64,000 nt of DNA from Dipteris shenzhenensis (lineage: Eukaryota), in assembly GCA_047967505.1 (NCBI GenBank), contig CM106538.1, one strand, 5' to 3'. Positions 8,861-40,202 of this stretch are shown piece by piece; the first letter of the stretch is position 1, and each line of letters begins with the position of its first letter. Under the pieces are notes generated by a model that did no database searches, had not been told where the DNA came from, and saw only the letters and a list, made by a program, of their open reading frames with translations. A program made the position numbers and the translations under genes.

Positions 8861-8952
8861 CTGACAGAGCCTCTTTTTTTTTTCCCCTTTTTTTTTTCCC
8901 TTTCTTCTCAGCTCCCAAAGTAATAGATTTGTTTATTTTTTTCCAGTTTAAC

Positions 8953-16200: not shown

Positions 16201-17640
16201 AGTACTACTAGAATTAGTGCTAGCTATTCTTTTTTGTATTGAAGCCATTGGCTTGGCTTCGTGCTATATGTATATACACTCCTCTTATTTTTTGAACATG
16301 AAGCCACAGGTAGGTGGGCTTCGGCTATATGTATATACAAGCACTTTTTGGGCTATGAATTAATATACAATCCTCTTTTTTTTTTGGCATTCAATTTTCT
16401 TGTGCAATGTTTTATCAATGAATGCTTTGTGATGTAAACGTTTTGGAGTTGTAATGTTTTATTAGGAATTGTAATCGTCAGCTATAGACGTGAATGGAAT
16501 TGTGCAAATTAAAATGTGGTTGGTAGTAAGAATTGCATTGTACACTGTAGAAATGGGATTCCTACAACCACACAACATACTATAGAAATGGGATTCCTAC
16601 AACCACACAGCATACACAACATTCTATTCAACCACACGACATTCTTTTTAAAAAAAATAATTCTGCAGAGCATCTATAAGTGTGTCTATTAGCACATCTT
16701 TCTTTTTTTTTGTAAAGTGTCTATTAGCATGTCTATGGGTGTGTCTCTTTGTTATATAGATGCGTCTATAGACACGGGTTTGTAGATGTGCTAATAGATG
16801 CACTTATTAATTTTTTTAAAAATTCAATAAACACGTTTATACACGTGTCTATGGATGCATTGTGTTGTTGTGTTATTGGCGCATCAAAGGCCCCATCCAT
16901 CACAAGTTTGGATTTCTTTTGAACACAAGCAATATACTATGAAAGATGATTGGTCAATCAAAAAACAATGGCAATTTTTTCTATTGCCATGGATAGCCTC
17001 CCCTTTTGTTCAATCATTCTCTCCAAATCCCTTGCAACTATTAAATGGAGTGTTGAATTGATTCTTGTACATGGAGTGTTGAATTTATTACGATGAAGGC
17101 AATATACAATCCCCTTGTAGATCACATCCCCTTGCATGCTCCCACTGTCAATCACTTGTATTCTTCCTATTGACTTTAGTTTGGTGAAGAGCTTCTTCTC
17201 ACCAATTGTGCAACATGTCACGATAATAATAATTCTCCTTAAATAAATATAAATACAAATACAAATCTGAATAAATAAATATATGGGAATAAGAGCAAGG
17301 TCTTTTCAATATGGGTATGTTTTATATATCTATTGAAATCATCTCCGCATATAGCTAGAGTCCACTTGTGTGTGTGTTTTGTACCATGGATAAAAAGGTT
17401 ATCCAAGAATATTAGTAAGAATTTGTCGATTTATTCCTAGAAAGTTTCTACCATGAATTGCTGGAACATAGCATGTGCACTCTTCAACTCGATTAGCATC
17501 ACCTTAATCGAGTATGCTCCTTTTTTGATGATCAAGCTTGCCATTTCTTGATCCTCATTGGGCATTGTGGTTTAGGTGTACCCCCTATATCCGTCCATGA
17601 ATGCATATGTCTCATGCCCCAGTACTTTGTCCAAGATGTT

Positions 17641-17885: not shown

Positions 17886-18239
17886 ATAAGAAAAAAAGAA
17901 ATTGTGGGGTAGGATCACAGTAGGATGGGGCTTGTTTTAGTTCCATCCTGCCCCAGAATGTTTTTTTTTCATTAGAATCATGTTACAAAAGCGGTGTACA
18001 AAATCATGTTACAATGTTACAAAAAAGGTCTACAAAATGGCAAAAGTAGTTCCGAAGGAATCTGCTCTCCAAACGGGTGACATGATGACATGTCTAATTC
18101 AACGGGATTGGACCAACACAAACACAAACAATAAAACAAATACAAAGACAAAATCGAATAAGAAGCGAAAAAAATAATATAGACTTGCATTTTTGTCTTC
18201 TAAGTCTTGAAAAGAGACCACCATCATATCTAAGGATGG

Positions 18240-19485
18240 GAGCGAGGAAGAGTGGAGAGAAAGACCAAAAAAAGGAGAGAAAGAGGAAAGAGAAGAGAAA
18301 AGAAAATAAGAGGGAAGAGAAAAGAGAGGAAAAGAGAGGAGAGAAAGAGAGAAAGAAGAGGAGGAAAATAAGAGAGGAAAAGAGAGGACAGAAAGAGAGA
18401 AACAAAGAGAGAAATAAGAGGAGGAGAGAAAGAGAGAAAGAAGAGGAGGGAAATAAGAGAAGAAAAAAAGAAAGGAAAGAGAGGAGAGAAAGAGAGATAA
18501 AAATGAGAGAAAGAGAGGAAAAGAGAGAAGAGACAAGAAAATAAGAGAGGAGAGAGAAGAGAGGAAAAGAGAGAGCAAGGAAGAGGAAAGAGAGAGAGAG
18601 AGAGAATAAGAGAGGAGAGAAAGAGAGAGAAGAGGAGGGAAATAAGAGAGGAAAGAAAGAGGAAAAAAGAGGGGAGAAAGAGAGAGAAAAAGAGAGGAGA
18701 AGAGAGGAGAGAAAATAAGAGAGGAGAGAAACGAGAGGAGGGAAAGAGGGAAAAGAGAGAGCGATAAAGAGAGGAAAAGAGAAGAGAGAAAGAGAGGAAA
18801 AGAGAAAGAAGAGTAGGAGAGAAAGAGAGAAAGAAGAGGAGGGAAATAAGAGAAGAAAGAAAGAGAGGAAAGAGAGGAGAAAAAGACAGAAAAAAAGAGA
18901 GAAAGAGAGGAAAAGAGAGAAGAGAAAAGAAAATAAGAGAGGAGAGAAAAGAGAGGAAAAGAGAGAGCGAGGAAGAGGAAAGAGAGAGCAAGAAAGAGAA
19001 AAAAAGAGCGAGAAAGAGAAGAAAAGAGAGGAGAGAGAAAATAAGAGAGGAGAGAAAAGAGAGGAAAAGAGGAGAGAAAAGAGATGAGGGAAAGAGGAGA
19101 GAAAGAGAGAAAGAAGAGGAGGGAAATAAGAGAGGAAAGAAAGAGAGGAAAAGAGAGGAGAGAAAGAAGAGTAGGAGAGAAAGAGAGAAAGAAGAGGAGG
19201 GAAATAAGAGAAGAAAGAAAGAGGGAAAAGAGGAGAGAGAAAGAGAGGAAAAGAGAGGAGAGAGGAGAGAAAAGAGAGGAAAAGAGAGGAGGGAAAGAGG
19301 AAAAAGAGAGAGCGACAAAGAGAGGAAAGAAAGAGGGAGGAAGAGGAAAGAAAGAGAGAAAGAGAGGAGAGAATAAGAAGAGAATAAGAGTGGGGAGGGA
19401 GGAGAGAGAAAATAAGAGAGAACGAGAGAGCGCGGAAGAGGAAAGAGAGAGCGAGAAAGAGAGGAAAAGAGAGGAGAGAAAGACA

Positions 19486-19535
<50 letters not shown>

Positions 19536-19600
19536 GAGAGGAGAGAAAGAAAATAAGAGAGAAGAGAAAAAAAGTAGAAGAAGAAAGGAGAAGAGTAGAG
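18240..19600. repeat. About 1.4-kb polypurine (AG-rich) low-complexity tract including a (GA)n run
   Basis: Almost exclusively A/G on the + strand, with recurring GAAAAGAGAGGA / GAAATAAGAGAG units. Confidence 0.95.
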
Positions 19601-20349
19601 AGTTCCTATGCCCATCATTTTGAAGCTAGCGCTTTAAGAGAGAAAGCTAGCTGTAGGCCAATGTATGCATGAAAATAAAAACAAGAGAGAGACAAAGCAC
19701 GTTCTTACCTAGAAAGTACATGTCTTAGGCATGACACCAGATGATCCTGCTTGAAGTTTCGTGTTTCGTGTTTTTTGCCCTATAAAAGAGAGAAAACATA
19801 CCATTTAAGGAAACTAGTTAGTGAAAGGAGGAGTTTGGAGAAGAAACATACCAAAGGAATGGAGAGAGGAGACAAAGAGAAGCCTACAAACAAGGACAAA
19901 GCATAAAAGGAAGAGGTAGAGCTTTCATACTCCTCTCTTTCATGAATTTTTTTGATGTATTGTGTTTTACTTGAGAGAAAGAAAAAGAAAGGACAAGAGA
20001 AACTTCAGAGAAAGGAAGGGAAACTAGAGGAGAGGAAGAAAGAAAGACAAAGAAACCAAAAAAACTTAAAATAGAAGTAGATGATAGAAATTCTTATCTT
20101 GAGGTGGAGAGGGAGAATGTAGGAGAGGATGGAGAAGTGGGAGGGGGAGGGAGGAGGGAGAAGTTATGAGGCAAGGATTGAGGGGGGTGATTGCGAGCTG
20201 AAAGCGAGGAAGGAGAATGCAAGAAACAAAAACACAAATGGCATCGCATGAAAGGAAAGCGTGGGTTTTGTCCCTGATGCCGTCGGTATTAGCATCAGTA
20301 TTTATAGCAGAGGTGTTAGTATATACCGACAAAACAAGGGTTTATGCTT

Positions 20350-23335
20350 CTGGGGGTTTAGAGTTTAGGGTTTTTGGGGGGGCTTGGGAGGCTTGGGAGA
20401 TTTTGGGGGTTTGAAAGGATTTAGGGGGGATTTAAGGGGGGTTTAGACCTCAGGGTTTTTTAGATTTAAGGGGATTTAGGGTTTGGGGGGACTTAGGGAA
20501 TTTGGACTAGTTTAAGGGGTTTAGGGGGGTTTGAGGGAATCTAGGGAGGGTTTAAGGGGGGTTGGGAGGTGTTTAAGGGGGGTTTAAGGGGGGTTGGGAG
20601 GTGTTGGGGGTTTAAGGGGGTTTAAGGGTATTTGAGGGGATTTAGGAGGGATTTAAGGGGGGTTTATATGTTGAGGGTTCACGCTCAACATCATGTGATC
20701 ATATGTGCATAGCACCATCATGTGATCATACGTGTATAGCACTAATCCAATAGAGTGCTATAAAGGAAAGGGTTAGATGCCCAGACCCTAACCCTAAATG
20801 GGTTTGTATATATTCTACATTTTCAACTTAATCTAGTGTACAATTAGTCATTTGTGGTGTGCTCTCTAGCTGTGCCCTCTCTCCTCATCTCCACTCTTCT
20901 CCTCTCCCCTCTTCATATTTTATCATGGTATCAGAGCTCCCTTGGCTTCTGCTGAGGCATTGCGATTCTTGAGAGCGTGAGAGATATTGAGACTGATCGA
21001 GTGAGCATCCTTTCATTTCATTGATGAAAGAGATTTTCGTTCACTTGGAAGAATTTCTGTCCATTCATTTCCTTGAGAGTTCTTTGGAGATTTCTGTTTA
21101 CATCTGAGAGACATCTCTTCCATTGAGAGATTGTGTGCAAGAGAGAGTTCATTCCTTTTAGAGATTTATTTTATGAGACAGATCTGTGAGGAGTTCTTCT
21201 TCTTCTTCTTCTTCATTTGAGAGAGAGATATATAGCTTCATTCTGAGAGAGATAGAGATAGCTTCATTTTGAGAGAAAGAGATTAGTCTATGCGTTCTAT
21301 TCTCTACAAACTAGCCTAGTGTTCTGTATCGACCTCTCGATAGAGCTCAAAGCAAGGCAAGCACTTAGCTGCATACTACAAGCCTCGCAATAGCAGCAAG
21401 GCCCTAAGGTGACCACAAGAAGCAACTTTCTACACAAGGATGGTACCACAAGTCCTTGATGACGGACGACCAACGCTCCAACAGATATAAGCTCCTTCAT
21501 GGATTGCTCACTAGCCAGCAGCCTCTTCAACGGCTACAACTCACTCCCTCACGATTGCTCCAGTCTATCGATTGACGATAGCCCAAAGCTCCACGGGCTT
21601 CAACGATGACACAAAGCCTTCTTGACGAGGCCTCAGCCACTCCAATAGCCACGAGCTAGCACCAGCGACTCAAGACTCCCTGTGCGCCAAGTTCTCATCC
21701 AATGCATTGAACTCAGCAAAGATAGCACCAACGGGCTTCTCCACTGTCAACACAACGAGCACACAAGCTCACGGGTAGTCTCAACGAGCCAAGCTTTGCC
21801 CGACCTTCTCTATGCATACAAGCACCCTACAACAAAGGTAGTGGTGTTGCCGACCTTCTCTATGCATACAAGCACCCTAGAACAAAGGTAGTGGTCCATG
21901 CATCAGCAGAGCGATGCCTTCAACGGACTACAGCAAGAGCTCATGAGCAAAGGCGGATCAACAAGACGAACTGCCCACACTACAATAGTCCTTAAGCTTC
22001 TCTGCCCCGCCATCGACAACCTTCAGCTTGTCTACATGACGCTCCAGCCTCTCCAACGAGCCAATGCTAGTGCCTCTCCAATGAGCCAGCCAATGAATTG
22101 CCTACACACAACAATGCAAAGGGCCTCCATCTAGAGCGTGCCTCTCCTCGCAAGCACATGGGCTATAGCACTAGCTCCAACAAGCCCACGACACCTATCC
22201 AAGCAGCAACGTGTGGCCCAACACACATGCGACAATGCAAGCTCTCCAGCCATGCACAAATGGAATCGACGAAATATTTAAAAGATTCTAGTCGCCCTCC
22301 TTCCAACACATGGTAGAAATTGAGGATAGGGTTAGTTACCTAAATCCTAGGTTAGTTAAGTTAATCATAGCTTGGGTCCAACAAGAGACACATGGCAAAC
22401 CTTGGTCACCTTATCTGCAGGGTCACCACTCACCCTAGGAGTGGTCTACAAGGCAACACTGGCATGTTATCTTGCCATGTCAACATCTGCCACATCATCT
22501 GGCCACATCAACTGCCACCTCAGCTACCATGTCAGCTGCCACATCAGTAGGTCTAGTCAAATTCAATGCCACATCATCGGGTCTACATCATCATTGTTGA
22601 CATCATCAATGCCACATCACCAACTTACCAACTCATCAACCTAGTCAACTACCACCTCATTAGTGCCACATGGCACTTTGACCCTTGCAGGCACAGTTAT
22701 CCCTCTGTAGGTACACACAGTCATTGCATGTCACCACACCTGCCACCTCAACACAGGGCTCCATAGGCATAGTCCCTGCTAGGCATAGTCACTGCATGTG
22801 ACCCCCTGATTGCCACATCATCATTGAGCACATTTGGCCTACTTCATGATGTTGATCTTGAGGGAAGGTGTTGAGAGTTCACGCTCAGCATCATGTGATC
22901 ATATGTGCATAGCACTAACCCAATAGAGTGCTATAAAGGAAAGGGTTAGATGCCCTAACCCTAACCCTAAATGGGTTTGTATATATTCTACATTTTCAAC
23001 TAAATCCAGTGTACAGTTAGTCAGTACAGTTAGTCATTTGTGGTGTGCTCTCTAGCTGTGCCCTCTCTCCTAGTCTCCACTCTTCTCCTCTCCCCTCTTC
23101 ATATTTTGTCATTAGGGGGTATTCGGGGATTAAGGGGATTTAGGATGGGAAATTTTAGAGAATTTGGATAATTTCAAGGGGTTTGGTGGGTTTTAGGGAG
23201 GGTTTAGGGTTTGGGGTTGGGGGATTTGGGAGGGTTTAGGGAATTTGGATGGGTTTAAGGAATTTTAGGTACCAAAGAAGGGGTTTGGGGGTTTCTGGGG
23301 GATTTGGGTGTTTGACTTGACTGGGAGGGATGATT
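20350..23335. repeat. Degenerate G/T-rich TTTAGGG/TTTAAGGGG-like tract, split by an LTR element
   Basis: Repeated GGGTTTAGGG, GATTTAAGGGGG variants at 20350-20668 and 23112-23335. Confidence 0.7.
20669..23111 (+). mobile_element. Non-autonomous LTR retroelement (TRIM/LARD-like), 2443 bp
   Basis: LTRs TG...CA at 20669-20925 and 22869-23111; PBS TGGTATCAGAGC (tRNA-iMet) at 20926-20937; PPT TTGAGGGAAGG before the 3' LTR; no recognisable gag/pol inside; flanks TTATA/TTAGG match only partly. Confidence 0.92.
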
Positions 23336-23358
23336 TTGGATGTGTTTAGGTGGAAAGG

Positions 23359-23884
23359 ATGAGTAGTGATAGCTCATCGAATGGCGGGCTACCTCCCGGG
23401 AGTGTGGAGTGGCTTCGTGAGAGATTGCCTTGTCCTTGTACGCATTGTAGACGAGGGGTTTGTCATCAGCACTGCATTGTGATGCGCTACTTGCAAATGT
23501 ATGGAGAGGCACCAACAGAAGAGGACATTGGTCATAATGCTAGTGTATCATCAATAAACCAATGATATTTGAGTGATTCATGGATATTTATATTGCGTGC
23601 ATATTCCACACACTAACCTTGTGTCAATATATAGGATGAGAAGAGCAGCGAGGGAGCACATGCACCACCACCACACTTCAAGACAAATGATCCTCTAGAG
23701 GAGGACGAGATGGATTCTATTTTTGGAGGCACCACAGGAGATGGGGGAGAGATGTCTGAGCATGGGACCATGATGCGATATTTGGCGTCAACACACTTGT
23801 ATGATGTTGTGAGGATGACAAACTACGAGCGTGCCTCTCGATTGAATCTGCAGGCAAAGTATGGCTGGTCGGACACAAGTATCA
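23359..23884 (+). pseudogene. Truncated N-terminus of a CACTA Tnp2 transposase (two exons)
   Basis: MSSDSSS..WLRERLPCPCTHC..YLQMYGE and ASTHLYD..LNLQAKYGWSDTS parallel MSSSSTSS..WLEQKIKCLCDQC..HISKYGE and ASTPLFEG..LNLQTIYGWSNAS of the full transposase at 58268. Confidence 0.8.
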
Positions 23885-23994
23885 CTTGATCGGATAACTT
23901 CTCCCACTAATAAATTAAGTACTAATTAAAAATTATAATAAATAAGTAGATTATTAAAAAGAGACTAATATTTATGTAATTGTTGCCACTGCAG

Positions 23995-24557
23995 CTTGCT
24001 TGCGAAGGACTCTCACAAAGGAGATGGCTATAGATTTTGTTCCAGGGATGGATGTGATTTTATGTAGCAAAAGAGAAGTAGTTGCATTTGCTACAATCCA
24101 TGATAGTGATCCCAATTCACTTTGCCACTTTCGAAGACTTGGCGAAGATAAGGTAGCAGTTACTGTATCAAAGATTCTTAGCGCACATGTTGAGCTAAAG
24201 TATAAATGTGGAGATATGGAAACACTTGGAGATGTTATGCCCTACAATACATCCAACAAATCATTTATAGCATGGGACAAAGATGAGACTTATGCAACAG
24301 ACATTATCAAGAATACAAAGTGCACCACCTTGGATTTTACTATAGGGGACATTTTACAAATGAGATCATTTGCAAATAAGATTGTAGCAAAAGGTGAAGT
24401 ATTGGGATTTGAACAAGTGGAGCAATGGTCATTTGCGCAGATGAGGATTCTAAAAGTCACTGATGATGGTATGGTTGATAACATAACATCCTTATGTGAT
24501 CCCTACTATGAGGTAGGCAAGAATATGAGATGGAGCATGCAATTTGCACATCCATAA
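23995..24557 (+). CDS. Orphan exon with Tnp1/En-Spm C-terminal (Transposase_23/DUF8039-like) domain, probably tandem
   Basis: Acceptor CTGCAG at about 23994; VVAFATIHDSDP..HFRRLG..VAVTV..TLGDV..FIAW, then a second IVAKGEV..MRW unit; the frame runs into the first satellite monomer. Domain call by eye. Confidence 0.55.
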
Positions 24558-27500
24558 AAAAAACACGCTGCTAGGTGTGTTATCCGATCAAGTACTTATG
24601 CGATGGGAATGCCACTTTGCATGTAAGTCAATTCCACCTAGTTGAAGGTGTGTGCAAAGTATTGTGCCCATCCAATATGCTTTGCATTGTCGATCAAGCA
24701 TAACACACTATTTCTGCCTTACTGTCATGCACAACCATATAAAAACACGGCCATAGGTGTGTTATTCAAATAAGTACTTATCAGATGGGGGCTCCACTTT
24801 GCACGCAAGTTCGTTTTAACTACATTGAGGTGCGTGCAAAGTATTGTCACCATCGGATATGATTTGCATGGTCGATCACGCATTATACACCATTTTTTCC
24901 CTAATGATATGCACATTCGCACAAAAACACGCCATTAGGTGTGTTATCTGACCAAGTACTTATCGGATGGGTGTGCCTCATTGAGAACATTTCAATACCA
25001 CCTAGGTTGAGGCGTAAAAAAAGTTTTGTGCCCATTGGATATCCTTTGCATGGTCAATCGAGCATCAAATACTATTTTTACTCTAGTGTCATGCACATCC
25101 GTCAAAAAACACGCTTCTAGGTATGTTATATGATCAAGCACTTATCGGATGGGCGTGCCACTTTGCATGTAAGTTGATTCTACCTATTTGAAGGTGTGTG
25201 CAAAGTATTGTGCCCATCGGATATGCTTTGCATTGTCGATCAAGCATAAAACACCGTTTTTGTCTTAGTGTCATGCACATTCGTCAAAAAACGCAGTCCT
25301 AGATGTGTTATTCAGACTAGTACTTATCGGATGGGGGCTCCAATTTGCACGCAAGTCTGTTTCAACTAGGTTGAGGTGTGTGCAAAATTTTGTCACCATC
25401 AGATATGATTTGCATGGTCGATCACGCATTATACACCGTTTTTTCCCTAGTGGTATGCACATCCGCAAAAAAACACGCCCTTAGGTATGTTATCTGACCA
25501 AGTACTTATCGGATGGGTATACCTCTTTGACAACATTTTAATACCACCTAGGTTGAGGTATAAGAAAAGTATTATGCCCATCGGATATGCTTTGCATGGT
25601 CGATCGAGCATTAAATACCATTTTTGCCTTAGTGCCATGCACATTCGTAAAAAAACACGCTGCTAGGTGTGTTATCCGATCAAGAACTTATGCGATGGGA
25701 ATGCCACTTTGCTTGTGAGTCAATTACACCTAGTTGAAGATGTGTGCAAATTATTGTGCCCATCCGATATGATTTGCATGGTTGATCGAGCATTAAATAC
25801 CATTTTTGCCTTAGTGCCATGCACATCCGTAAAAAAACACGCTGCTAGGTGTGTTATCTCATCAAGCACTTATGCCATGGGTGTGCCACTTTGCATGTAA
25901 GTCAATTACACCTAGTTGAAGGTGTGTGCAAAGTATTGTGTTCATCGGATATGCTTTGTATTGTTGATCGAGCATAACACACCGTTTTTGCCTTAGTGTC
26001 ATGCACAACCATATAAAAATACGGCCATAGGTGTGATATTCAAATAAGTACTTATCAGATGGGGGATCCACTTTGCACGCAAGTTCGTTTCAACTACGTT
26101 GAGGTGCATGCAACGTATTGTCACCATCGAATATGATTTGCATGGTCGATCACGCATTATACACCATTTTTTTCCTAATGATATGCACATCCGCAAAAAA
26201 ACACGCCATTAGGTGTGTTATTTGACCAAGTACTTATCGGATGGGTGTGCCTCATTGAGAACATTTCAATACCACCTAGGTTGAGGCGTACAAAAAGTTT
26301 TGTGCCCATCGGATATCATTTGCATGGTCGATCGAGCATTAAATACTTTTTTTACTCTAGTGTCATGCACATCCGTCAAAAAACACGGTGCTAGGTATGT
26401 TATCTGATCAAGCACTTATGGGATGGGCGTGCCACTTTGCATGTAAGTCTATTCCACAAGTTTGAAGGTGTGTGCAAAGTATCGTGCCCATCGGATATGC
26501 TTTGCATGGTCGATCGAGCATTAAATACCATTTTTGCCTTAGTGCCATGCACATCCGTAAAAAAACACGCTGCTAGGTGTGTTATCTGATCAAGCACTTA
26601 TGCGATGGGCGTGCCACTTTGCATGTAAGTCAATTACACCTAGTTGAAGGTGTGTGCAAAGTATTGTGTTCATCGGATATGCTTTGCATTGTCGATCAAG
26701 CATAACACACCGTTTTTGCCTTAGTGTCATGCACAACCATATAAAAACACGGCCATAGGTGTGTTATTCAAATAAGTACTTATCAGATGGGGGCTCCACT
26801 TTGTACGCAAGTCCTTTTTAACTACATTGAGGTGCGTGCAAAGTATTGTCACCATCGGATATGATTTGCATGGTCGATCACGCATTATACACCATTTTTT
26901 TCCTAATGATATGCACATCTGCAAAAATACACGCCATTAGGTGTGTTATCTGACCAAGTACTTATCGAATGGGTGTGCCTCATTGAGAACATTTCAATAC
27001 CACCTAGGTTAAGGCGTAAGAAACGTTTTGTGTCCATCGGATATGCTTTGCTTGGTCGATCGAGCATTAAATACTATTTTTGCTCTAGTGTCATGCACAT
27101 CCGTCAAAAAACACGTTGCTAGGTATGTAATCCAATCAAGCACTTATGGGATGCGCGTGCCGCTTTGCATATAAGTCTATTCCACCTAGTTGAAGGTGTG
27201 TGCAAAGTATCGTGCCCATCGGATATGCTTTGCATGGTGGATCGAGCATTAAATACCATTTTTGCCTTAGTGCCATGCACATCCGTAAAAAAACACGCTA
27301 CTAGGTGTGTTATCTGACCAATTACTTATCGGATGGGTGTGCCTCATTGCGAACATTTCAATACCACCTAGGTTGAGGCGTACAAAAAGTTTTGTGCCCA
27401 TCGGATATGCTTTGCATGGTCGATCGAGCATTAAATACTATTTCTGCTCTAGTGTCATGCACATCCGTCAAAAAACACGCTTCTAGGTATGTTATCCGAT

Positions 27501-30500
27501 CAAGAACTTATGGGATGGGCGTGCCACTTTGCATGTAAGTTGATTCCACCTAGTTGAAGGTGTGTGCAAAGTATTGTGCCCATCGGATATGCTTTGCATT
27601 GTCGATCAAGCATAAAACACCGTTTTTATCTTAGTGTCATGCACATTCGTAAAAAAACGCAGTCCTAGATGTGTTATTCAAACTAGTACTTATCGGATAA
27701 GGGCTCCAATTTGCATGCAAGTCCGTTTCAACTAGGTTGAGGTGTGTGCAAAGTATTGTCACCATCGGATATGATTTGCATGGTTGATCACGCATTATAC
27801 ACCGTTTTTTTCCTAGTGGTATGCACATCCGCAAAAAAACACGCCCTTAGGTATGTTATCTGACCAAGTACTTATCGTATGGGTGTGCCTCTTTGACAAC
27901 ATTTTAATACCACCTAGGTTGAGGTATGAGAAAAGTATTATGCCCATCGGATATGCTTTGCATGGTCGATCGAGCAGTAAATACCATTTTTGCCTTAGTG
28001 CCATGCACATCCGTAAAAAAACACGCTCCTAGGTGTGTTATCCGATCAAGCACTTATGCGATGGGAATGCCACTTTGCATGTAAGTCAATTCCACCTAGT
28101 TGAAAGTGTGTGCAAAGTATTGTGCCCATCAGATTTCCTTTGCATGGTCAATCGAGTATTAAATACTATTTCTACTCTAGTGTCATGCACTTCCATCAAA
28201 AAACACGCTGCTAGGTATGTTTTCCAATCAAGCACTTATGGGATGGGTGTGCCACTTTGCATGTAAGTCTATTCCACAAGTTTGAAGGTGTGTGCAAAGT
28301 ATCGTGCCCATCGGATATGCTTTGCATGGTCGATCGAGCATTAAATACCATTTTTGCCTTAGTGCCATGCACATCCGTAAAAAAACACGCTGCTAGGTGT
28401 GTTATCTGATCAAGCACTTATGCGATGGGCGTGCCACTTTGCATGTAAGTAAATTACACCTAGTTGAAGGTGTGTGCAAAGTATTGTGTTCATCGGATAT
28501 GCTTTGCATTGTCGATCAAGCATAACACACCGTTTTTGCCTTAGTGTCATGCACAACCATATAAAAACACGGCCATAGGTGTGTTATTCAAATAAGTACT
28601 TATCAGATGGGGGCTCCACTTTGCACGCAAGTCCGTTTTAACTACATTGAGGTGCGTGCAAAGTATTGTCACCATCGGATATGATTTGCATGGTCGATCA
28701 CGCATTATACATCATTTTTTTCCTAATGACATGCACATTCGCAAAAAAACACGCCATTAGGTGTGTTATCTGACCAAGTACTTATCGGATGGGTGTGCCT
28801 CATTGAGAACATTTCAATACCACCTAGGTTGAGGCGTACGAAAAGTTTTGTGCCCATCGGATATCCTTTGCATGGTCTATCGAGCATTAAATTCTATTTT
28901 TACTCTAGTGTCATGCACATCCGTCAAAAAACACGTTTCTAGGTATGTTATAGGATCAAGCACTTATGGGATGGGCATGCCACTTTGCATGTAAGTCGAT
29001 TCTACCTAGTTGAAGGTGTGTGCAAAGTATTGTGGCCATCGGATATGATTTGCATTGTCGATCAAGCATAAAACACCGTTTTTATCTTAGTGTCATGCAC
29101 ATTCGTAAAAAAACGCAGTCCTAGATGTGTTATTCAAACTAGTACTTATCGGATGGGGGCTCTAGTTTGCACGCAAGTCCGTTTCAACTAGTTTGAGGTG
29201 TGTGCAAAGTATTCTCACCTTCGGATATGATTTGCATGGTTGATCAAGCATAACACACCGTTTTTGCCTTAGTGTCATGCACAATCATATAAAAACACGG
29301 CCATAGGTGTGTTATTCAAATAAGTACTTATCAGATAGGGGCTCCACTTTGCACGCAAGTCCGTTTTAAGTACATTGAGGTGTGTGCAAAGTATTATCAC
29401 CATCGGATATGATTTGCATGGTCGATCACGCATTATACACCATTTTTTCCCTAGTGGTATGCACATCTGCAAAAAAACATGCCCTTGGGTATGTTATCTG
29501 ACCAAGTACTTATCGGATGGATGTGCCTCTTTGACAACATTTTAATAACATCTAGGTTGAGGTATAGGAAAAGTATTATGCCCATCGGATATGCTTTGCA
29601 TGGTCGATCGAGCATTAAATACCATTTTTGCCTTAGTGCCATGCACATCCGTAAAAAAACACGCTGCTAGGTGTGTTATCCGATCAAGCACTTATGCGAT
29701 GGGAATGCCACTTTGCATGTAAGTCAATTCCACCTAGTTGAAGGTGTGTGCAAAGTATCGTGCCCATCAGATATGCTTTGCATGGTCGATCGAGCATTAA
29801 ATTCCATTTTTGCCTTAGTGCCATGCACATTCGTAAAAAAACACACTGCTAGGTGTGTTATCTGATCAAGCACTTATGCGATGGGCGTGCCACTTTGCAT
29901 GTAAGTCAATTACACCTAGTTGAAGGTGTGTGCAAAGTATCGTGCCCATTGGATATGCTTTGCATTGTCGATCAAGCATAACACACCGTTTTTGCCTTAG
30001 TGTCATGCACAACCATATAAAAACACGGCCATAGGTGTGTTATTCAAATAAATATTTATCATATGGGGGCTCCACTTTGCACGCAAGTCCGTTTTAACTA
30101 CGTTGAGGTGCGTGCAAAGTATTGCCACCATCGGATATGATTTGCATGGTCGATCACGCATTATACATCATTTTTTTCCTAATGACATGCACATTCACAA
30201 AAAAACATGCCATTAGGTGTGTTATCTGACCAAGTACTTATCGGATGGGTGCGCCTCATTGAGAACATTTCAATACCACCTAGGTTGAGGCGTACGAAAA
30301 GTTTTGTGCCCATCGGATATCCTTTGCATGGTCTATCGAGCATTAAATACTATTTTTACTCTAGTGTCATGCACATCCGTCAAAAAACACGTTTCTAGGT
30401 ATGTTATAGGATCAAGCACTTATGGGATGGGCATGCCACTTTGCATGTAAGTCGATTCTACCTAGTTGAAGGTGTGTGCAAAGTATTGTGCCCATCGGAT

Positions 30501-30862
30501 ATGCTTTGCATTGTCGATCAAGCATAAAACACCATTATTGCCTTAGTGTCATGCATAATCGTCAAAAAACACGATCGTAGGTGTATTTTTCAAACAAGTA
30601 CTTATCGGATGGGGATGCCACTTTGCACACAAGTCAATACTGCCTAGGTTGAGGAACGTGTAAAGTCTTGTGTCCATTGGATATGCTTTGCATAGTCTGT
30701 CTCACATGATACACCATTTTGTTCCTAGTGTTATGCACAATCGTCATAAAATACATAGGAGGTGTGTTATCCGAACAAGTACTTATGAGATGGGTGCACC
30801 ACTTTGTATGCAAGTCAATAAGACCTAGGTTGAGGAGTGTACAAAGTTTTGTGCCCATTGGA
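24546..30862. repeat. Tandem array of 182-bp monomers (34 full + 1 partial) with higher-order structure
   Basis: The (AT)GCAC anchor recurs at 24546, 24729, 24911, 25093 ... 30735; 30735-24729 = 33 x 182. Several recurring monomer classes. Confidence 0.97.
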
Positions 30863-31569
30863 GAAATGTAGATGCGATAATATTAGAAAATTCTCGGTAT
30901 ATGTATATGTGTGTGTGTGTGTGGCAAACAATTTTGGCACAAAGTAAACACCTAGTGCACAAATTATGCACTTCATACCTTGAGTAAATAAGCTTGTTGA
31001 TGAGGATAAATATACCCTTGAATAAAAGCACAGTTGTTGTATGACCACAATAGGATCGCTTTGACACCTGTGATTTTGCCATATGTAAGTTTACAAATAG
31101 TATAAAAAATCATGTAATAATATATTAATAGTTTGCAAATGTGTATAGCAAGTGAGTAATGGGAAGTGGAAGTGGGAATGAGGAGGGAGGAGTGGAATAG
31201 GATAGGGAAGTAATAAGGGTGTATGATAATAAGTATAAAAAATAGTATAATAATATATTAATAGTTTTTAAATGGCAAGTGAGTAATGGGAAGTGGAAGT
31301 GAGAGTGGGGAGGGAAGAATGGAATGGGAGAGGGGAAGGTAATAGGGGAGTAGGCTAATAAGGGAGTGAAATGAGTGAGGAAGTTAATAGGGGATGAAAA
31401 AGAGGAGGGTGAGATGGGGAAATATGGGATTTTGGAAAATGGGAGGAGTATGGGACGTGGTGGAAATGTGGGATGGGAGTGGTGGCAATGGGGAGGAAGA
31501 AGAAATGGATGGATGGGAGGAGGGCTAATGGATGAGGGATGGGGGTTCAATAGGAGAGGGGGAGTAATG

Positions 31570-31800
31570 GGAGCCAATGGGAGAGGAGATAAATGAAAAG
31601 CCAATAGGAGAGAGGGGAGGAATGGAAAGCCAATAGGAGAGGAGGAGGAAAACCTAATTTTTCTTATATATAGTCTTCCTTCATTCATTCTTTCTCCCCT
31701 CATTTCATTCAAGCAAGAAAGCAAGGACGATCAAGAGAGCAAGGAAGGAAGAGCAAGAAAGCAAGAAAGAGCAAACTTACAAACTGTTTCCAGGTACTTG
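31570..31800 (+). promoter_or_regulatory. Putative Pol II promoter and non-coding first exon
   Basis: Three GCCAAT motifs (about 31574-31634), TATATATA at 31665-31672, pyrimidine-rich start region, splice donor CAG/GTAC at 31794. Confidence 0.5.
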
Positions 31801-31859
31801 CAAACTTTTTTTTCTAGTTTCTTTTTTAAAATTTGAAGAGAGAGAAATTAGAGAGAGAA

Positions 31860-33960
31860 AGGTTCAGGGGAGGGGAGGGAGGGGAGGGAGGAGGAAGGGA
31901 GGGGAGGAAGAGGGTGGGACGGGATGCAGGAGGAAGGGAGGGGAAGAAGGGGCGAAGAGGGAGGTGGGTGTGAGGGAAGGGGGTGGGAGGGGAGGCTGGC
32001 GCGGCGGGTGGGAGGGAAGCTGGTGGGTGCAGAGGGGAGCTGAGAGGAGGAGGGGGGAGCGGCTGAGAGGGGGAAGGGGGGGCGCGGCTGAGAGGAGGGG
32101 GGAGCGGCTGAGAGGGGAGGCGGTGCGGGGCGCGGCTGAGAGGGGGAGCGAGGGGGGCGCGGCTGAGGGGGGGAGGGGGGGGAGGGTGAAGAGGGGGGGC
32201 TGGCGGCCGCGGCCGCCAGCCCGGGAGGGTGGGGGAGCGGCTGAAGGGGGGGAGGAGGGAGGGGGGGCGCGGCTGAGAGGGGGAGGAGGGGGGCGCGGCT
32301 GAGGGGGGGAGAGGGGGGGAGGGTGAAGAGGGGGGGCTGGCGGTGAGGGGGGGAAGGGGGGGTGGGGGAGGGGTTGCGAAAGGGGGGGGGGGGGGGAAGG
32401 GGGGGGGCTGGGTGAGAGGAGGGGGGGGGGGGGCTGGCGGCCGCGGCCACCAGCCAGGGAGGGTGGGTTGCGAAAGGGGGGGGGAGAGCGAAGAGAGGGG
32501 GGCTGGGTGAGAGGAGGGGGGGGGGGGGGCTGGCGGACGCGGCCGCCAGCCAGGGAGGGTGGTGAAGGGGGGGATGGGTGGGTCGCGAAGGGGGGGGGGA
32601 GGGTGAAGACCCCCCCTGGGTGAGAGGGGGGGGGGCTGGCGGCCGCGGCCGCCAGCTAGGGAGGGTCAAGGGGGGGATGGGTGGGTTGCGAAGGGGGGGC
32701 GGGAGTGTGAAGGGGGGGGGGGCTGGGTGAGAGGAGGGGGGGGGGGGGCTGGCGGCCGTGGCCGCCAGCCTAGGGAGAGAGGAAGGAGAGGGGGGGGGGC
32801 TGGGTGAGAGGGGGGGGGCTGGCGGCCGCGGCCGCCAGCTAGGGAGCGTGAAGGGGGGGGATGGGTGGGTTGCGAAGGGGGGGGGGAGGGTGAAGAGGGG
32901 GGGGGCTGGGTGAGAGGAGGGGGGGGGGGCTGGCGGCCGCGGCCGCCAGCCCAGGGAGAGAGGAGAGGGGGGGGGCTGGGTGAGAGGAGGGGGGGGGGGC
33001 TGGCGGCCGCGGCCGCCAGCCCAGGGAGAGAGGAGAGGGGGGGGGCTGGGTGAGAGGAGGGGGGAGGGAGGAGAGGGGGGGGGGGCTGGCGGCCGCGGCC
33101 GCCAGCCAGGGAGGGTGAAGGGGGGGGGGGGATGGGCGGGTTGCGAAGGGGGGGCGGGAGGGTGAAGAGGGGGGGTGGGTGAGAGGAGGGGGGGGGGCTG
33201 GCGGCCGTGGCCGCCAGCCCAGGGAGAGAGGAGAGGGGGTTGCGAAGGGGCTGGGTGAGAGGAGAGGGGGGGGGGCTGGCGGCCGCGGCCGCCAGCTAGG
33301 GAGGGTGAAGGGGAGGATGGGTTGCGAAGGGGGAGGAAGGTGAAGAGGGGGGGTTGGGTCGTGAGAGGAGGGGGGGGGGGCTAGCGGCCGCGGCCGCCAG
33401 CCCAGGGAGGGTGAAGGGGAGGGGATGGGTGAGAGGAGGGGGGGGGCTGGCGGCCGCGACCGCCAGCCCAGGGAGAGAGGGAGGGTGAACGGGGGGGGAT
33501 GGGTGGATTGCGAAGGGGGGGAGGTTGAAGAGGGGGGGGCTGGGTGAGAGGAGGGGGGGGGGCTGGCGGCCGCGGCCGCCAGCCCCATGGAGGGCGGAGG
33601 GGGAGCTGGGTGAGAGGAGGGGGGTGTCGCCAAGGAGGGAGGGAGGGGGGGCCAAAGGAAGAGTGGGGAGAGGGTGTAAGGGTTGGGGGGGTCGCCAAGG
33701 GGGGTGGGGAAAAGGAGGAAGGTTAAAAGGGGGTAGGGGAAAAAGGGGTAGGGGAGGAAGAGGTTAGGCGACGGGAGAGGGGAAGGGTAGCAGGAGGGGA
33801 GGGGAGGGGGGAGGGAGAGGGGGATTTTGGGGAAGGAGGGGGGCGGAGGGAAGGGAGGAGTTTTGGCGGCGGAGGGAGGGGAGGGAAGGAGGTTGGAGGA
33901 GAGGATTGGGTCGAGGGATGGATGGAGGGAAGGAGAGGAGAGAGAGGAGAGAGAAAGAAG
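31860..33960. repeat. G-rich, CpG-rich repeat block with 14 copies of the 22-bp palindrome GCTGGCGGCCGCGGCCGCCAGC
   Basis: Copies between 32199 and 33583: 8 perfect, 6 with one substitution, plus one half-site. Spacers are G-runs with GGGTGAGAGGA and GGTTGCGAAGG motifs; GCGGCTGAGAGG repeats at 32000-32300. Confidence 0.95.
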
Positions 33961-34679
33961 GAGAGAGAGAGATGGGAGAGGAGGATTTGACTTACTATCA
34001 CGAGCAAGAACGAAAAATAAGATTTGACTTACGAGAAGAATGAAAAGGACTTACGAGAATGAAAAGGACTTACATGAAAAGGACTTACGAGAATGAAAAG
34101 GACTTACGAGAATCGAGAAGAATGTTGAAGAAAGTATCAAGAAGAATGTTGAACATAAATTTGAATTCAAAAGGAACGTATAAGAAGAAAGTATAAGAAG
34201 AATGTTGAACACAAATTTGAAATTCAAATTTATAATGAATTCAAATTTCCCTCTCTTTTTTGAAAATTCAAATTTATGTGTAGGAGTGGACTAGTTTTAA
34301 CTCTCTCCTCGTTTCATTGAAGCAACCAAGAGCGGAAGAGAAAGGATAAGCCGAGCCTTACTTTTTTCACTTTTTCCAGGTACTTGCATTCTTTTTTATT
34401 CGTCTTGTAATTCTATTTCTTTACTTACAATTCTTTTCAATTAGTTTCTTGTTAAGGTTTTTGAGTTCTATTTCTTAAAAATTCGTATTGTAATTCTTTT
34501 TCTTTACTATATTCCTTTTTCAATTAGTTTATTCTTAAAGTTTTTGAGGAGGGTGGTCTTTTAGAAGGCATTACAATTCTTTTTAAATTAGTTTCTTATT
34601 TGAGTTTTTGAGTTCTATTTTAATTAGTTTTTTATTTATATTTGAGTTTGTAAATTTGAGAAATGGGAGAATAGGGAGG

Positions 34680-35102
34680 GAGGGAAAGAGAGAAATTAAG
34701 AGAGAGAAGAGGGGCTCCTTAAGAGAGGGAGAGAGAGAGAGAGATTCACACAGAGAAGAGGGGCTCCTTAAATGAGAGAGAAGAGTAGGGAGGGAAAGAA
34801 AGAGAGAGGAGAGAGGCGGAGAGAGATTAAGAGAGAGAAGCTAGTAAAGAGAGAGGAGAGAGGGGGAGAGAGATTAAGAGAGAGAACCGGGTCTCTTGGG
34901 GGCCGTGGCTACTTGAGGGAGGGAGAGAGTAGGGAGAGAGAGGGAGAGAGAAAGAGAGAGAGGGAGAGAGAGAAAGAGAGAGAGGGAGAGAGAGAGAAAG
35001 TATATGGGAATGAAACGTGGCGAGAGGAGAGAGGAAAAGAGAGAGAGAGAGAGAAGAGAAGAGGGAGACTTAGGGAGAGAGAGGGAGAGAGAGAGAGAGA
35101 GG

Positions 35103-35140
<38 letters not shown>

Positions 35141-35750
35141 GAATGAAACTTCTGTGCTAGAGGGAGGGAGAGGGAGAGAGAGAATAAGTGGGATGAGGAT
35201 AGAGAGAAAAATACTTAAGAGTTGTCAAAGAGAGAGAGAGAGAGATTAAGAGAGAGAATGAGGTGTCTTGACTATGGCTACAAGGAGATTTAGGAGGAGA
35301 GAGAGAGAGAGAGAGAGAAAGTAAAGAGAGTTTTATATATTTACATCTTTTATATTATATTTTTAAATGAGAGAGAAGAGTAGGGAGGGAAAGAAAGAGA
35401 GAGGAGAGAGAGGGAGAGAGATTAAGAGAGAGAAGCCGGTTTCTTGGGGACCTTGGCTTCTCTTGGGGACCGTGGCTCCTTGAGGGAGGGAGAGAGTAGG
35501 GAGAGAGAGGGAGAGAGAGAGAAAGAGAGAGAGGGAGAGAGAAAGAGAGAGAGGGAGAGAGAGGGAGAGAGAGAGAGGAATGAAAAATACTTAAGAGTTA
35601 TAGAGAGAGAGAGAGAGATTAAGAGAGAGAATGAGGTGTCTTGACTATGGCTGCAAAGAGATTTAGGAGTAGAGAGAGAGAGAGAGAGAGAGAGAGAAAG
35701 TAAAGAGAGTTTTATATATTTACATATTTTATATTATACTTTTAAAAAAT
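34680..35750. repeat. GA-rich tract with an about 600-bp imperfect duplication and (GA)n microsatellites
   Basis: TTAAATGAGAGAGAAGAGTAGGGAGGGAAAGAAAG at about 34768 and 35364; GAGAATGAGGTGTCTTGACTATGGC occurs twice. Confidence 0.85.
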
Positions 35751-36174
35751 TATAAAAGAGTGAATTTATGGTTTGTTTTGAAGGTGAGATAATGTTTTTA
35801 TATATATTCATCTTTTAAATTGAAAAATGTTAACTTTTCTTAAGATACTTGTTCTTTATTTATATCACATGCAGGTTTAGCCTCTACATCACAACCCCTT
35901 CTTTTGCATATTTAAGCCTCTTAAACCCCAGCACATTAAAATGAACACAGAAAAAGAAATTATTTATTGCTTTTCTTCGCTTCGACGGTTGGTTTAGCAT
36001 AGTTTAGCATAGATTAGATTGCCTTTGAGGAGAGACAATTCTCCAAGTTGCCAATCGAAGCCATGCTCAAATTTTTCTAACTAGTTCCTAATCGTTGTCA
36101 GTCCCTTCGCTCACATGCGGTTTAACACTCATAACATGCTATTAAATAAGACCTTTTACCATTTACCAAGAAGT

Positions 36175-36775
36175 TTATCAGTGGGCAGATTGCATGAGCA
36201 GATATCAGTGGACAGATTGCATGAGCAGATATCAGTGGACAGATTGCATATATCAGTGGACAGATTACATGTCATGGGACATATTGGAGCTTGATGATTA
36301 TTGGTTATTTTTATTGCATTTGTATAAATATTTAAGCTCATTTATTGTCATAAAAATCCTTGTAAAGCCTTTTATGCTATTTTTTACATTTATTGTCATA
36401 TGAAGCGCCTTGTAATAAACCCGACCATCCCGACCATTCACTAATTAACGAGTATCAGTGGGATGCATAAGTGGATATCATGTGGGCTGCATAAGTGGAT
36501 ATCAGTGGAACAGTTTTTAGTGGATAGATTGCACCAGTTGGGTATCAGTGCTCAGATATCAATGGATGGATAGATTACATGAATCTTCACGAAGATTGAA
36601 GCTTTATCACTAGACGACATTTTATATTACTTGTAAAGCTTTATTGGCTAATTCTTTTACATTTGTACAAATATTTAAGCCTTGTAAAGCCTTTTAGGCT
36701 ATTTCCCACATTTATTGCCATATGAAGCCTTGTAAAGCCTTTTGGGCTATTTTCCACATTTATTGTATCAAGGGT
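36175..36775. repeat. Short tandem repeats upstream of the large ORF (27-bp ATATCAGTGGACAGATTGCATGAGCAG; about 49-bp CTTGTAAAGCCTTT... units)
   Basis: Direct repeats at 36175-36270, 36450-36580, 36355-36415 and 36680-36770. Confidence 0.75.
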
Positions 36776-36834
36776 TGTATATTGTAATTTACTTGTATGT
36801 ATCTAAATTCTTCATTATCTTTTCTTGTAGGATT

Positions 36835-40104: not shown

Positions 40105-40202
40105 CATTTGTTTATTTATTCACAGTTCAGTTATATATCAGTTTCCTAGTGCAAAATGCAAATCAATTCTATGAGCTAATGTTTGTTTATTTCTTGGTGT
40201 AG

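What the first reader, a model, noticed from the sequence alone, without database searches (positions are those of the whole stretch)
24546..30862. Each 182-bp monomer folds back into a long hairpin, with class-specific compensatory changes
Seen, in the monomer at 29825: GGTGTGTTAT/ATAACACACC, AAGCA/TGCTT, ATGGGC/GCCCAT, ACTTTGCATGTA/TGTGTGCAAAGT and TCAATTA/TAGTTGA are nested symmetrically around a CACC loop. In class B monomers both arms differ together, giving the perfect pair ACTTTGCACGCA/TGCGTGCAAAGT. Class C uses an alternative GCCTCA/TGAGGC stem. In the monomer inspected, mismatches are mostly G-T on the + strand (about 6, versus 1 C-A), as expected if + strand RNA structure is selected. 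Inference: a polycistronic pre-miRNA/siRNA-like or structured-RNA array, or a cruciform protein-binding array, rather than a simple satellite. A MITE-derived tandem expansion is the mundane alternative.
Basis: partly seen in the sequence, partly recalled or inferred. Interest (0 to 1): 0.75.

Follow-up and report, generated by a model that had tools for sequence, protein, structure and literature searches.

The report
Palindrome-bearing 182-bp plant satellite repeat
This is a tandem array of a 182-base satellite repeat from a transposon-rich plant region; each unit carries a worn inverted repeat, and there is no good sign that it is kept as a folded RNA.

Summary
The array is real: TRF finds period 182 and 34.7 copies at 24545-30862. 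Thirty-three consecutive monomers are each exactly 182 bp.

The inverted repeat inside the monomer is also real. Slid controls give 29-46%.

"Each monomer folds into a long hairpin" is overstated:
- The outer stem appears in the minimum-energy fold of 4 of 33 monomers.
- MFEI reaches 0.85 in 3 of 33.
- RNAalifold consensus structures are weak (-6.8 and -2.6 kcal/mol).

Compensatory change is not shown. Six pairs change on both sides, against 9.1 in shuffles. On a monomer tree, Watson-Crick pairs are lost 83-88 times and gained 44-48 times. Arms and linker evolve at similar rates. The G·T excess is clear in cells (245 vs 63) but not in inferred events (29 vs 21, p=0.32).

DNA contigs of three public runs hold many variants of the family, with other array junctions.

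Verdict: an ordinary satellite built from a palindromic progenitor, under strict length constraint. RNA evidence could not be obtained.

The parts
24545..30862 (.). Tandem array of the 182-bp satellite: 33 full in-phase monomers (24726-30731), a junction monomer (24544-24725) and a last partial monomer (30732 to about 30852).
   Evidence: TRF gives period 182, 34.7 copies, score 5969. An ungapped register is kept. Mean pairwise difference is 39 of 182.
29822..30003 (+).
   Evidence: RNA MFE -62.1 kcal/mol, z -4.53. It has 47 WC and 7 G·T of 54 pairs, and MFEI 0.94.
29852..29914 (+). Left arm of the inverted repeat in that monomer (monomer positions 31-93).
   Evidence: Pair list; arm alignment.
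29915..29987 (+). Right arm of the inverted repeat in that monomer (monomer positions 94-166). The CACC loop is at 29913-29916.
29988..30033 (+). The 46-bp linker between successive palindromes (monomer positions 167-182 plus 1-30). It holds the invariant TGCA and an A-run. Its ACACGC motif competes for the left end of the palindrome through the local hairpin 19-38.
   Evidence: Invariant columns. The local hairpin is in the MFE of 18 of 33 monomers. Substitution rate is 1.65 events per site, against 1.46 in the arms.
24074..24545 (+). Left flank, a repeated element that abuts the array. Stop-free frame 23958-24557, 199 aa, with no family and no homologue found.
   Evidence: Contigs of three runs cover 24074-24545 (X3 from 24321) and then continue with unrelated sequence (tables 7 and 8). 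No Pfam hit. No homologue among longer proteins. No usable hit in the protein atlas.
30732..30852 (+). Last, partial and degenerate monomer, with a 1-bp deletion near position 25-30. The array ends after ...CCCATTGGA.
   Evidence: Sequence read. The same right junction appears as a loose end in contigs of X1 and X2 (table 7).
30550..30731 (+). Most diverged full monomer at the array edge, used as outgroup.
   Evidence: It differs from every other monomer by at least 42 of 182. Tree.

Best explanation
The region is one array of an abundant, multi-locus satellite DNA family of a plant. The window's CACTA transposase is nearest to fern proteins.

**What the unit is.** The 182-bp unit consists of a degenerate inverted repeat of about 136 bp and a 46-bp linker. 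I infer that the palindrome was inherited from the sequence that was first amplified: a foldback, MITE-like or other palindromic piece of DNA.

**How the array grew.** I infer that it grew by unequal exchange into a higher-order pattern of subclasses, roughly A3-B2-C2-A4-B1-C1-A1(-A2).

**How it evolves.** Within the array's history the palindrome behaves as a DNA relic, not as a maintained RNA structure. Pairs are lost about twice as often as they are gained. Arms and linker change at similar rates. Double compensatory changes are not enriched.

**What is constrained.** Monomer length is constrained, at exactly 182 bp, as are a few sequence blocks. That points to a constraint at the DNA or chromatin level, such as nucleosome-scale phasing or protein binding.

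**Any RNA role.** Transcripts, if made, would be partly double-stranded and could feed siRNA silencing as a by-product. This is inference only.
For: **Array and subclasses**
- The array and its strict phase are shown.
- Subclasses recur at offsets of 8, 10, 13 and 21-22 monomers.

**The family is abundant and lies at other loci**
- 174, 137 and 16 contigs of runs X1-X3 lie on 4 monomers plus flank. None of X4's do.
- Summed word depth on the array is roughly 10-30 times that of the flank. The tool warns that this is not a copy number.
- Loose ends leave the repeat at several different monomer positions.

**The palindrome is ancestral and decaying**
- The inferred ingroup ancestor already has 35 WC and 9 G·T of 54 pairs.
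- There are 83-88 WC losses against 44-48 gains, and no same-branch WC-to-WC double change.
- Substitution rates are 1.46 events per site in the arms and 1.65 in the linker.
- Six pairs change on both sides, against a shuffle mean of 9.1.

**Sequence is conserved where pairing is not**
- A G·G mismatch at pair 58/130 is kept in 27 of 33 monomers.
- It lies inside the best-conserved block, where both arms carry ATCGGAT in the same orientation.

**Length is constrained**
- Parsimony infers 298 substitutions but no net length change.
- CACTA copies in the same window show 0.146 gap openings per mismatch. That predicts about 43 indels.
- Only one indel row appears among the laid contigs (table 4).

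**The hairpins are not modular**
- In four-monomer folds, 41-115 pairs are inter-monomer and 117-185 are intra-monomer.

**Context**
- The surroundings are transposon-rich: CACTA copies and retrotransposon fragments.
Against: **A real strand asymmetry remains**
- The + strand folds better in 27 of 34 monomers.
- 80.1% of cells pair on +, against 69.8% on -.
- Columns where the mismatch is frequent (more than 5 monomers) split 17 G·T to 6 A·C, p=0.035.

**Weaknesses of the tree analysis**
- The tree is a neighbour-joining tree of recombining repeats, rooted on an edge monomer. The direction of gains and losses is therefore uncertain.
- If an A3-like perfect palindrome were ancestral the decay would be stronger. 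If A3 is derived, its 12 extra WC pairs would be gains. That count is also biased, because the structure was taken from an A3 monomer.
- Watson-Crick-paired sites change somewhat less often than mismatched arm sites. This is my estimate.

**Other points**
- CpG observed/expected is 0.83 in the array and 0.34-0.39 in the flanks. This is unexplained.
- The progenitor of the palindrome was not identified.
Confidence: 0.62

Rival explanations
1. Hairpin-RNA or siRNA source. The + strand of the array is transcribed. Each unit or pair of units folds into imperfect double-stranded RNA that Dicer-like enzymes cut into small RNAs. Selection on the + strand RNA tolerates G·U pairs but removes A·C mismatches.
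For: - The + strand is more stable in 27 of 34 monomers.
- 80.1% of cells pair on + and 69.8% on -.
- G·T:A·C in cells is 245:63 or 273:125, and frequent columns split 17:6.
- Rare columns are symmetric (19:20), as expected if A·C mismatches are purged with time. Fisher p=0.066.
- Three A3 monomers reach MFEI 0.88-0.94.
Against: - Event counts are not biased: 29 vs 21, p=0.32.
- C>T and G>A are equal in the arms, 34 vs 36.
- Double changes show no excess, and the consensus fold is weak.
- The full hairpin forms in 4 of 33 monomers, and MFEI is below 0.85 in 30 of 33.
- A conserved G·G mismatch lies in the core.
- There is no length variation even in the loop and linker, where an RNA hairpin would tolerate it.
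- Rfam has no match.
Confidence: 0.17
2. Protein-binding or non-B-DNA satellite, for example a centromeric or other chromatin-organising repeat. Dyad symmetry, conserved sequence blocks and an exact 182-bp phase would serve nucleosome or protein positioning. Short stems might extrude as cruciforms.
For: - Monomer length is exactly conserved despite 298 substitutions.
- Sequence blocks are conserved, such as TGCA at positions 2-5 and TTTGCAT at 138-144. ATCGGAT is kept in direct orientation on both arms.
- The dyad symmetry is real.
- With DNA parameters, z is -3.25 on + and -2.18 on -, against mononucleotide shuffles.
- The family is abundant.
- Dyad symmetries in centromeric satellites are described in PMC5889037. 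I saw only its abstract in a search listing.
Against: - Arms are only about 58-66% Watson-Crick.
- The perfect sub-stems are at most 12 bp long and 23 nt apart, which is poor for cruciform extrusion.
- There are no chromatin, CENH3 or cytological data.
- This array is only 6.3 kb and lies among transposons.
Confidence: 0.15
3. MITE-derived or transposon-internal array. The monomer is a miniature inverted-repeat element plus flank that was tandemly duplicated, or it is an internal or subterminal array carried by a CACTA or other DNA transposon.
For: - The palindrome has terminal 10-bp inverted ends in A3 monomers, GGTGTGTTAT/ATAACACACC.
- The surroundings are dense with CACTA copies.
- The left flank is itself a repeated element.
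- Satellites born from CACTA elements are in print (PMC7320549). I saw only its abstract in a search listing.
Against: - The window holds no solo copy and no similarity between the monomer and the CACTA copies.
- No target-site duplication is visible.
- Other arrays of the family end at varied monomer positions, about 101, 112, 132 and 137, rather than at the palindrome ends 31 and 166 (table 7).
- The array's flanks are not CACTA termini.
Confidence: 0.2

Closest known systems
Nucleosome-length plant satellite DNA with higher-order repeat structure
   Same: Head-to-tail array, monomer of about 180 bp, subfamilies in a higher-order pattern, many variants at several loci, degenerate edge monomers.
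   Different: About three quarters of the unit is one long, degenerate inverted repeat. Length is unusually exact: no net indel in 33 monomers.
Centromeric satellites with dyad symmetry or non-B DNA (Kasinathan and Henikoff 2018, PMC5889037; abstract seen in the listing)
   Same: A tandem satellite with dyad symmetry predicted to fold.
   Different: That paper's abstract describes dyad symmetries under 10 bp. Here the symmetry spans about 136 bp and is imperfect. A centromeric location was not tested.
Potato CL14 subtelomeric satellite, 182-bp monomer (PMC3276127; abstract and passages read)
   Same: Identical monomer length. The window also has degenerate telomere-like G-rich repeats 4 kb away.
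   Different: CL14 is described as well homogenised, without distinct variants. This array has subclasses about 21% apart. The window's CACTA transposase is nearest to fern proteins, not Solanum. CL14's sequence could not be read, because the supplement PDF gave no text, so similarity is untested.
Rhynchospora Tyba holocentromeric satellite, 182-bp variant (bioRxiv 10.64898/2026.01.17.700053; passages read)
   Same: A 182-bp monomer in short arrays of kilobases to tens of kilobases, interspersed with and sometimes inside transposons, CACTA included.
   Different: The published Tyba PCR primers (PMC5049389) find no match in the array: the best local scores are 8-10 for primers of 24 and 25 nt. 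Lineage evidence points to a fern-like plant.
Inverted-repeat (hpRNA) loci and MITE-derived miRNA genes of plants (recalled, from no call)
   Same: An inverted repeat that would give a stem-loop transcript.
   Different: Stems here are much less perfect, at 66% WC. The unit is tandemly repeated at many loci, and no expression data exist.

Membership tests
Satellite DNA | Long head-to-tail tandem array of a unit tens to hundreds of bp long | tested here: met
   Period 182, 34.7 copies; in-phase monomers.
Satellite DNA | Family present in many copies and at more than one locus | tested here: met
   174, 137 and 16 contigs of three runs lie on 4 monomers plus flank. They carry many variants and several different array junctions. 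Depth from contigs is not a copy number.
Satellite DNA | Non-coding | tested here: met
   No stop-free frame of 150 aa or more lies within the array. The one listed at 23958-24557 only reaches its first bases. No Rfam family matches.
Plant MIRNA precursor or polycistronic miRNA cluster | Each unit folds into one stable stem-loop. MFEI of about 0.85 or more is a recalled rule of thumb. | tested here: not met
   MFEI is 0.85 or more in 3 of 33 monomers. A single terminal loop occurs in 17 of 33. The outer stem is in the MFE of 4 of 33.
Plant MIRNA precursor or polycistronic miRNA cluster | Discrete 21-nt miRNA/miRNA* duplex reads | not testable with these tools
   No RNA holder was listed and no small-RNA data were at hand.
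Conserved structured RNA | Significant covariation supporting the helices | tested here: not met
   Six pairs change on both sides, against 9.1 in shuffles. The covariation score of 0.139 against 0.125 is within what related sequences give. RNAalifold covariation terms are -0.75 and -0.23. No same-branch compensatory change.
Inverted-repeat siRNA (hpRNA) locus | Long, near-perfect double-stranded stem | tested here: not met
   Mean is 35.6 WC and 7.4 G·T of 54 pairs. The longest uninterrupted helices are about 12 bp.
MITE or MITE-derived array | Terminal inverted repeats, target-site duplication and dispersed solo copies | tested here: inconclusive
   TIR-like ends are perfect only in A3 monomers. 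No duplication is seen. The window has no solo copy. Array ends elsewhere are not at the palindrome ends. No whole genome was available.
CACTA internal or subterminal repeat array | Array lies between CACTA termini or shares the element's subterminal motifs | tested here: not met
   No similarity between the monomer and any of the three CACTA copies. The 12-bp subterminal repeats listed by TRF are unrelated.
Dyad-symmetric centromeric satellite | Association with CENH3 chromatin | not testable with these tools
   No chromatin data. The dyad symmetry itself is met.
Potato CL14 / Rhynchospora Tyba (182-bp satellites) | Sequence similarity to the named family | tested here: inconclusive
   The Tyba primers do not match. 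The CL14 sequence was not obtainable. The host lineage inferred from the transposase is fern-like, which argues against both.

The most novel reading that the evidence does not exclude
The satellite is a functional chromatin element of a fern-like genome. Its exact 182-bp phase, conserved sequence blocks and + strand-biased foldback would together serve centromere or heterochromatin specification. In this reading, + strand transcripts fold into G·U-tolerant hairpins that seed siRNA silencing. The excess of old G·T over A·C mismatches would be the trace of that selection.
Probability: 0.12. Interest if true: 0.55.

Novelty: new member of a known kind. Interest (0 to 1): 0.25.

Why it matters
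The main value is as a caution. A tandem repeat whose unit is a palindrome will always show nested complementary blocks. It will also show apparent class-specific 'compensation', because each subclass inherits both arms together.

Methylation-type transitions (C>T and G>A) are the commonest events here: 106 of 271. I infer that such transitions can hit mirrored sites in both arms and mimic compensation. Judged by events on a tree rather than by cells, the RNA signal largely disappears.

Two things remain of interest:
- The monomer length is unusually exact.
- A modest + strand G·T excess survives.

If the source is a fern, as the transposase suggests, satellite families there are little described. 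One search for a fern satellite of this length found nothing specific. The family could be a useful cytogenetic marker and a candidate for centromere or heterochromatin studies.

Tried and rejected
- **Whole-genome search.** No genome is held for this window.
- **RNA evidence.** The look-up of sequencing runs listed no RNA holder, only DNA contig runs with small word shares of 0.16-0.19. Expression therefore stays untested. X4 laid no contig.
- **Metagenome contig scan.** A conserved 19-nt degenerate motif gave 59 loci, each with a single match. BLAST of four monomers against them found only matches of 20-31 nt, so these are chance hits and no relatives.
- **Earlier findings of this scan.** Nothing by place, by sequence or by words.
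- **Literature by sequence.** A 20-nt stretch of the monomer is in no held paper.
- **Literature by words.** Five word searches were run, besides the sequence search. They gave two other 182-bp satellites, potato CL14 and the Tyba variant, but no description of this repeat. Many subscription papers and all bioRxiv supplements were not searchable.
- **CL14 supplement.** Figure S1 yielded no text.
- **Left-flank frame of 199 aa.** No Pfam hit, no usable hit in the protein atlas, and no homologue among longer proteins.
- **Internal direct sub-repeats of the monomer.** None above shuffles: best 59 matches, against a shuffle mean of 60.5.
- **First structure-pair runs.** Searches used a central stem shifted by one base through my indexing error. 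replace them.
- **Apparent gain of pairs along the lineage to the A3 monomers**. I reject this as evidence of selection, because the structure was derived from an A3 monomer.
Full report
**What is there**

Tandem Repeats Finder reports one array at 24545-30862, with period 182, 34.7 copies and 76% matches. Cutting the region every 182 bases from 24544 keeps all conserved motifs in register for 34 units. MAFFT needs a gap only for the first, junction unit. The last partial unit (30732 to about 30852) has a 1-bp deletion. No copy of the monomer lies elsewhere in the window.

Monomers differ on average at 39 of 182 positions. They fall into three classes with subclasses:
- class A: 14 monomers in subclasses A1-A4 on the tree of monomers 2-34; the junction monomer 24544 also carries the A-type central pair
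- class B: 9 monomers in B1 and B2
- class C: 9 monomers in C1 and C2
- one diverged edge monomer

Subclasses recur at offsets of 8, 10, 13 and 21-22 units. The higher-order pattern is roughly A3-B2-C2-A4-B1-C1-A1(-A2), with local duplications.

**Context**

The window is a transposon-rich plant region.
- Two CACTA copies carrying Transposase_21 and DUF4218 lie in inverted orientation at 3565-11185 and 55544-63114, at 94-96% identity over most of their length. A third, older copy lies at 11186-16361.
- Degenerate retrotransposon fragments (gag, RNase H, gag-pre-integrase) lie at 43.7-55.7 kb.
- The transposase frame at 6842-7660 is 58-62% identical to proteins of the fern Adiantum nelumboides. 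It is about 40-54% identical to the other named plant proteins listed, angiosperms and a liverwort. I take the source to be a fern-like plant. This is an inference from one transposon protein.
- No whole genome is held for the window.

**Is the hairpin real?**

- On the + strand, 80.1% of 1836 cells form a standard pair. On the - strand, 69.8% do.
- With partners slid by 1-3 columns the figures are 30-46% and 29-37%.
- So the dyad symmetry is real and belongs to the whole array.

It is, however, worn.
- In the 33 full monomers, 66% of cells are Watson-Crick, 13.7% G·T, 3.5% A·C and 16.7% other mismatches.
- Per monomer, RNAfold energies beat dinucleotide shuffles only modestly: mean z -2.1 on +, -1.6 on -.
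- Only its three A3 sisters come near it. MFEI reaches 0.85 in 3 of 33 monomers.

In single-monomer folds:
- the outer stem forms in 4 of 33 monomers
- the apex stem forms in 2 of 33
- the central stem forms in 17 of 33
- a local hairpin, between an ACACGC motif in the linker and the left end of the palindrome, forms in 18 of 33 and competes with the outer stem

In four-monomer folds, 41-115 pairs join different monomers and 117-185 lie within one monomer. One hairpin per unit is therefore not a robust prediction. RNAalifold finds only 19 and 10 consensus pairs, at -6.8 and -2.6 kcal/mol. Rfam has no match in the array.

**Compensatory changes**

- The class B 'perfect' pair occurs exactly in 3 of 9 class-B monomers. 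It differs from the class A pair at three adjacent pairs, each G·T in A and G-C in B. These are three one-sided T/C differences, not double changes.
- Class C has lost the central 12-bp stem. It uses a stem in another register, GCCTCA/TGAGGC, exact in 5 of 9 monomers. Subclass C1 has A-T where C2 has G-C or G·T in that stem.
- These are real patterns, but they do not exceed controls. Pairs with a change on both sides number 6, against 9.1 ± 1.8 in shuffles.
- The covariation score (0.139 against 0.125) lies in the range that the tool says related sequences reach without any structure.

I built a neighbour-joining tree rooted on the edge monomer, with Fitch parsimony. It gives 298 substitutions.
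- Watson-Crick pairs are lost 83-88 times and gained 44-48 times.
- No branch carries a WC-to-WC double change.
- Arms change at 1.46 events per site and the linker at 1.65.
- C>T and G>A, the commonest events, are equal in the arms (34 and 36).
- CpG sites change about twice as fast as CHH sites.

In a methylated palindrome, the mirrored cytosines of the two arms share their sequence context. Parallel deamination can therefore turn G-C into A-T without selection. This is an inference. Template switching between arms is a further DNA-level route to stem-perfecting changes; that mechanism is recalled, not tested here.

**Strand asymmetry**

- That structure was chosen on the + strand with G·U allowed. 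On an arm alignment scored for Watson-Crick matches only, the counts are 273 to 125.
- Columns where the mismatch is frequent (more than 5 monomers) split 17 G·T to 6 A·C, p=0.035.
- Rare columns split 19 to 20 (Fisher p=0.066).
- In inferred events, WC>G·T is 29 and WC>A·C is 21, p=0.32.
- So a modest excess of old G·T mismatches exists. It is the best point in favour of + strand RNA, or + strand single-stranded DNA. It rests on few independent events and was tested after seeing the data.

**Signs of another kind of constraint**

- No net length change occurs in 33 monomers despite 298 substitutions. The CACTA copies of the same window show 0.146 gap openings per mismatch, and 0.135 in the pairs at 94% identity or more. 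About 43 indels would therefore be expected.
- One class-level difference near the apex (TAGTTGAAGG versus TAGGTTGAGG) looks like a +1/-1 pair that restores the length.
- Among the contigs of three runs laid on four monomers, only one indel row appears (table 4).
- The best-conserved block carries ATCGGAT in the same orientation on both arms. This keeps a G·G mismatch at pair 58/130 in 27 of 33 monomers.
- Here sequence is conserved at the expense of pairing. An RNA hairpin would tolerate length change in the loop and linker. A DNA or chromatin constraint would not.

**The family elsewhere**

One search of public runs listed only DNA holders, with small word shares. I laid four of them on the left flank plus four monomers.
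- 174, 137, 16 and 0 contigs lie on the stretch, at 88-100% likeness.
- Nearly all lie on the repeat. Their summed word depth is roughly 10-30 times that of the flank. The tool warns that this is not a copy number.
- Loose ends show the repeat joined to several unrelated sequences at different monomer positions, about 101, 112, 132 and 137. Other arrays therefore exist, and they do not end at the palindrome's ends.
- The window's right junction is seen in X1 and X2.
- The left flank (24074-24545) is itself a repeat. In all three runs it continues with other sequence rather than with the array.
- A scan of metagenome contigs with a conserved motif gave only chance single hits.

**What it is**

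The best reading is an ordinary satellite family whose unit was amplified from a palindromic piece of DNA plus 46 bp. The palindrome is decaying, while length and some sequence blocks are held. Three alternatives remain possible but unsupported by what could be computed:
- selection for a + strand RNA fold
- a chromatin or centromere role
- a MITE or transposon origin

**Known relatives**

Two published satellites share the 182-bp length.
- Potato CL14 (PMC3276127; abstract and passages read).
- An early-branching Rhynchospora variant of Tyba (bioRxiv 10.64898/2026.01.17.700053; passages read).
- The Tyba primers printed in PMC5049389 do not match the array.
- CL14's sequence could not be read.
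- The fern-like transposase argues against both.
- I found no description of this repeat in six paper searches. That covers open-access text only.

**Verdict**

The interpretation as a selected RNA array is not supported. The finding is a new member of a known kind, of low to moderate interest. Its exact monomer length and the residual G·T excess are the points worth a look once RNA and whole-genome data are at hand.

Noticed in passing
window 3565-11185 and 55544-63114; also 11186-16361: Two CACTA transposon copies (Transposase_21, DUF4218) in inverted orientation, 94-96% identical over most of their length, bracket the central 44 kb. A third copy, 77-90% identical, directly abuts the first.
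   Followed up: partly
window 36736-38559 (+): A stop-free frame of 608 aa that is not low-complexity. It has no Pfam family and no hit at E 0.001 or better among 5.8 billion proteins. It may be a lineage-specific transposon protein.
   Followed up: partly
window 32200-33582, within the block 31400-34000: A strongly G-rich block (75% G+C, GC skew 0.68 in 32001-34000) holds 14 copies of a 20-bp perfect palindrome, CTGGCGGCCGCGGCCGCCAG, at most 1 mismatch each, at irregular spacings of 66-234 bp. TRF also reports periods of 181 and 183 bp here.
   Followed up: partly
window 20400-20670: Degenerate G-rich repeats resembling the plant telomere unit (GGGTTTA/GGGGTTTAAG variants), 4 kb left of the array.
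   Followed up: no
window 18230-19630 and 34770-35710: Long, impure purine-rich (GA)n tracts on the + strand on both sides of the array (GC skew and AT skew about 0.7 in 18001-20000). They are similar to each other at 74-77%.
   Followed up: no
window 24726-30731 versus 20000-24500 and 36000-46000: CpG observed/expected is 0.83 in the array and 0.34-0.39 in the flanks. The array is either young, less methylated or otherwise protected from CpG decay.
   Followed up: no
window 4082-4135, 8635-8817, 55679-55748, 57703-57758, 62871-63024: Arrays of 12-bp units (such as TGTTAGACGCGC and CGTTTATTTGCG) lie inside the CACTA copies. They look like subterminal repeat clusters of those elements and are unrelated to the 182-bp monomer.
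   Followed up: no
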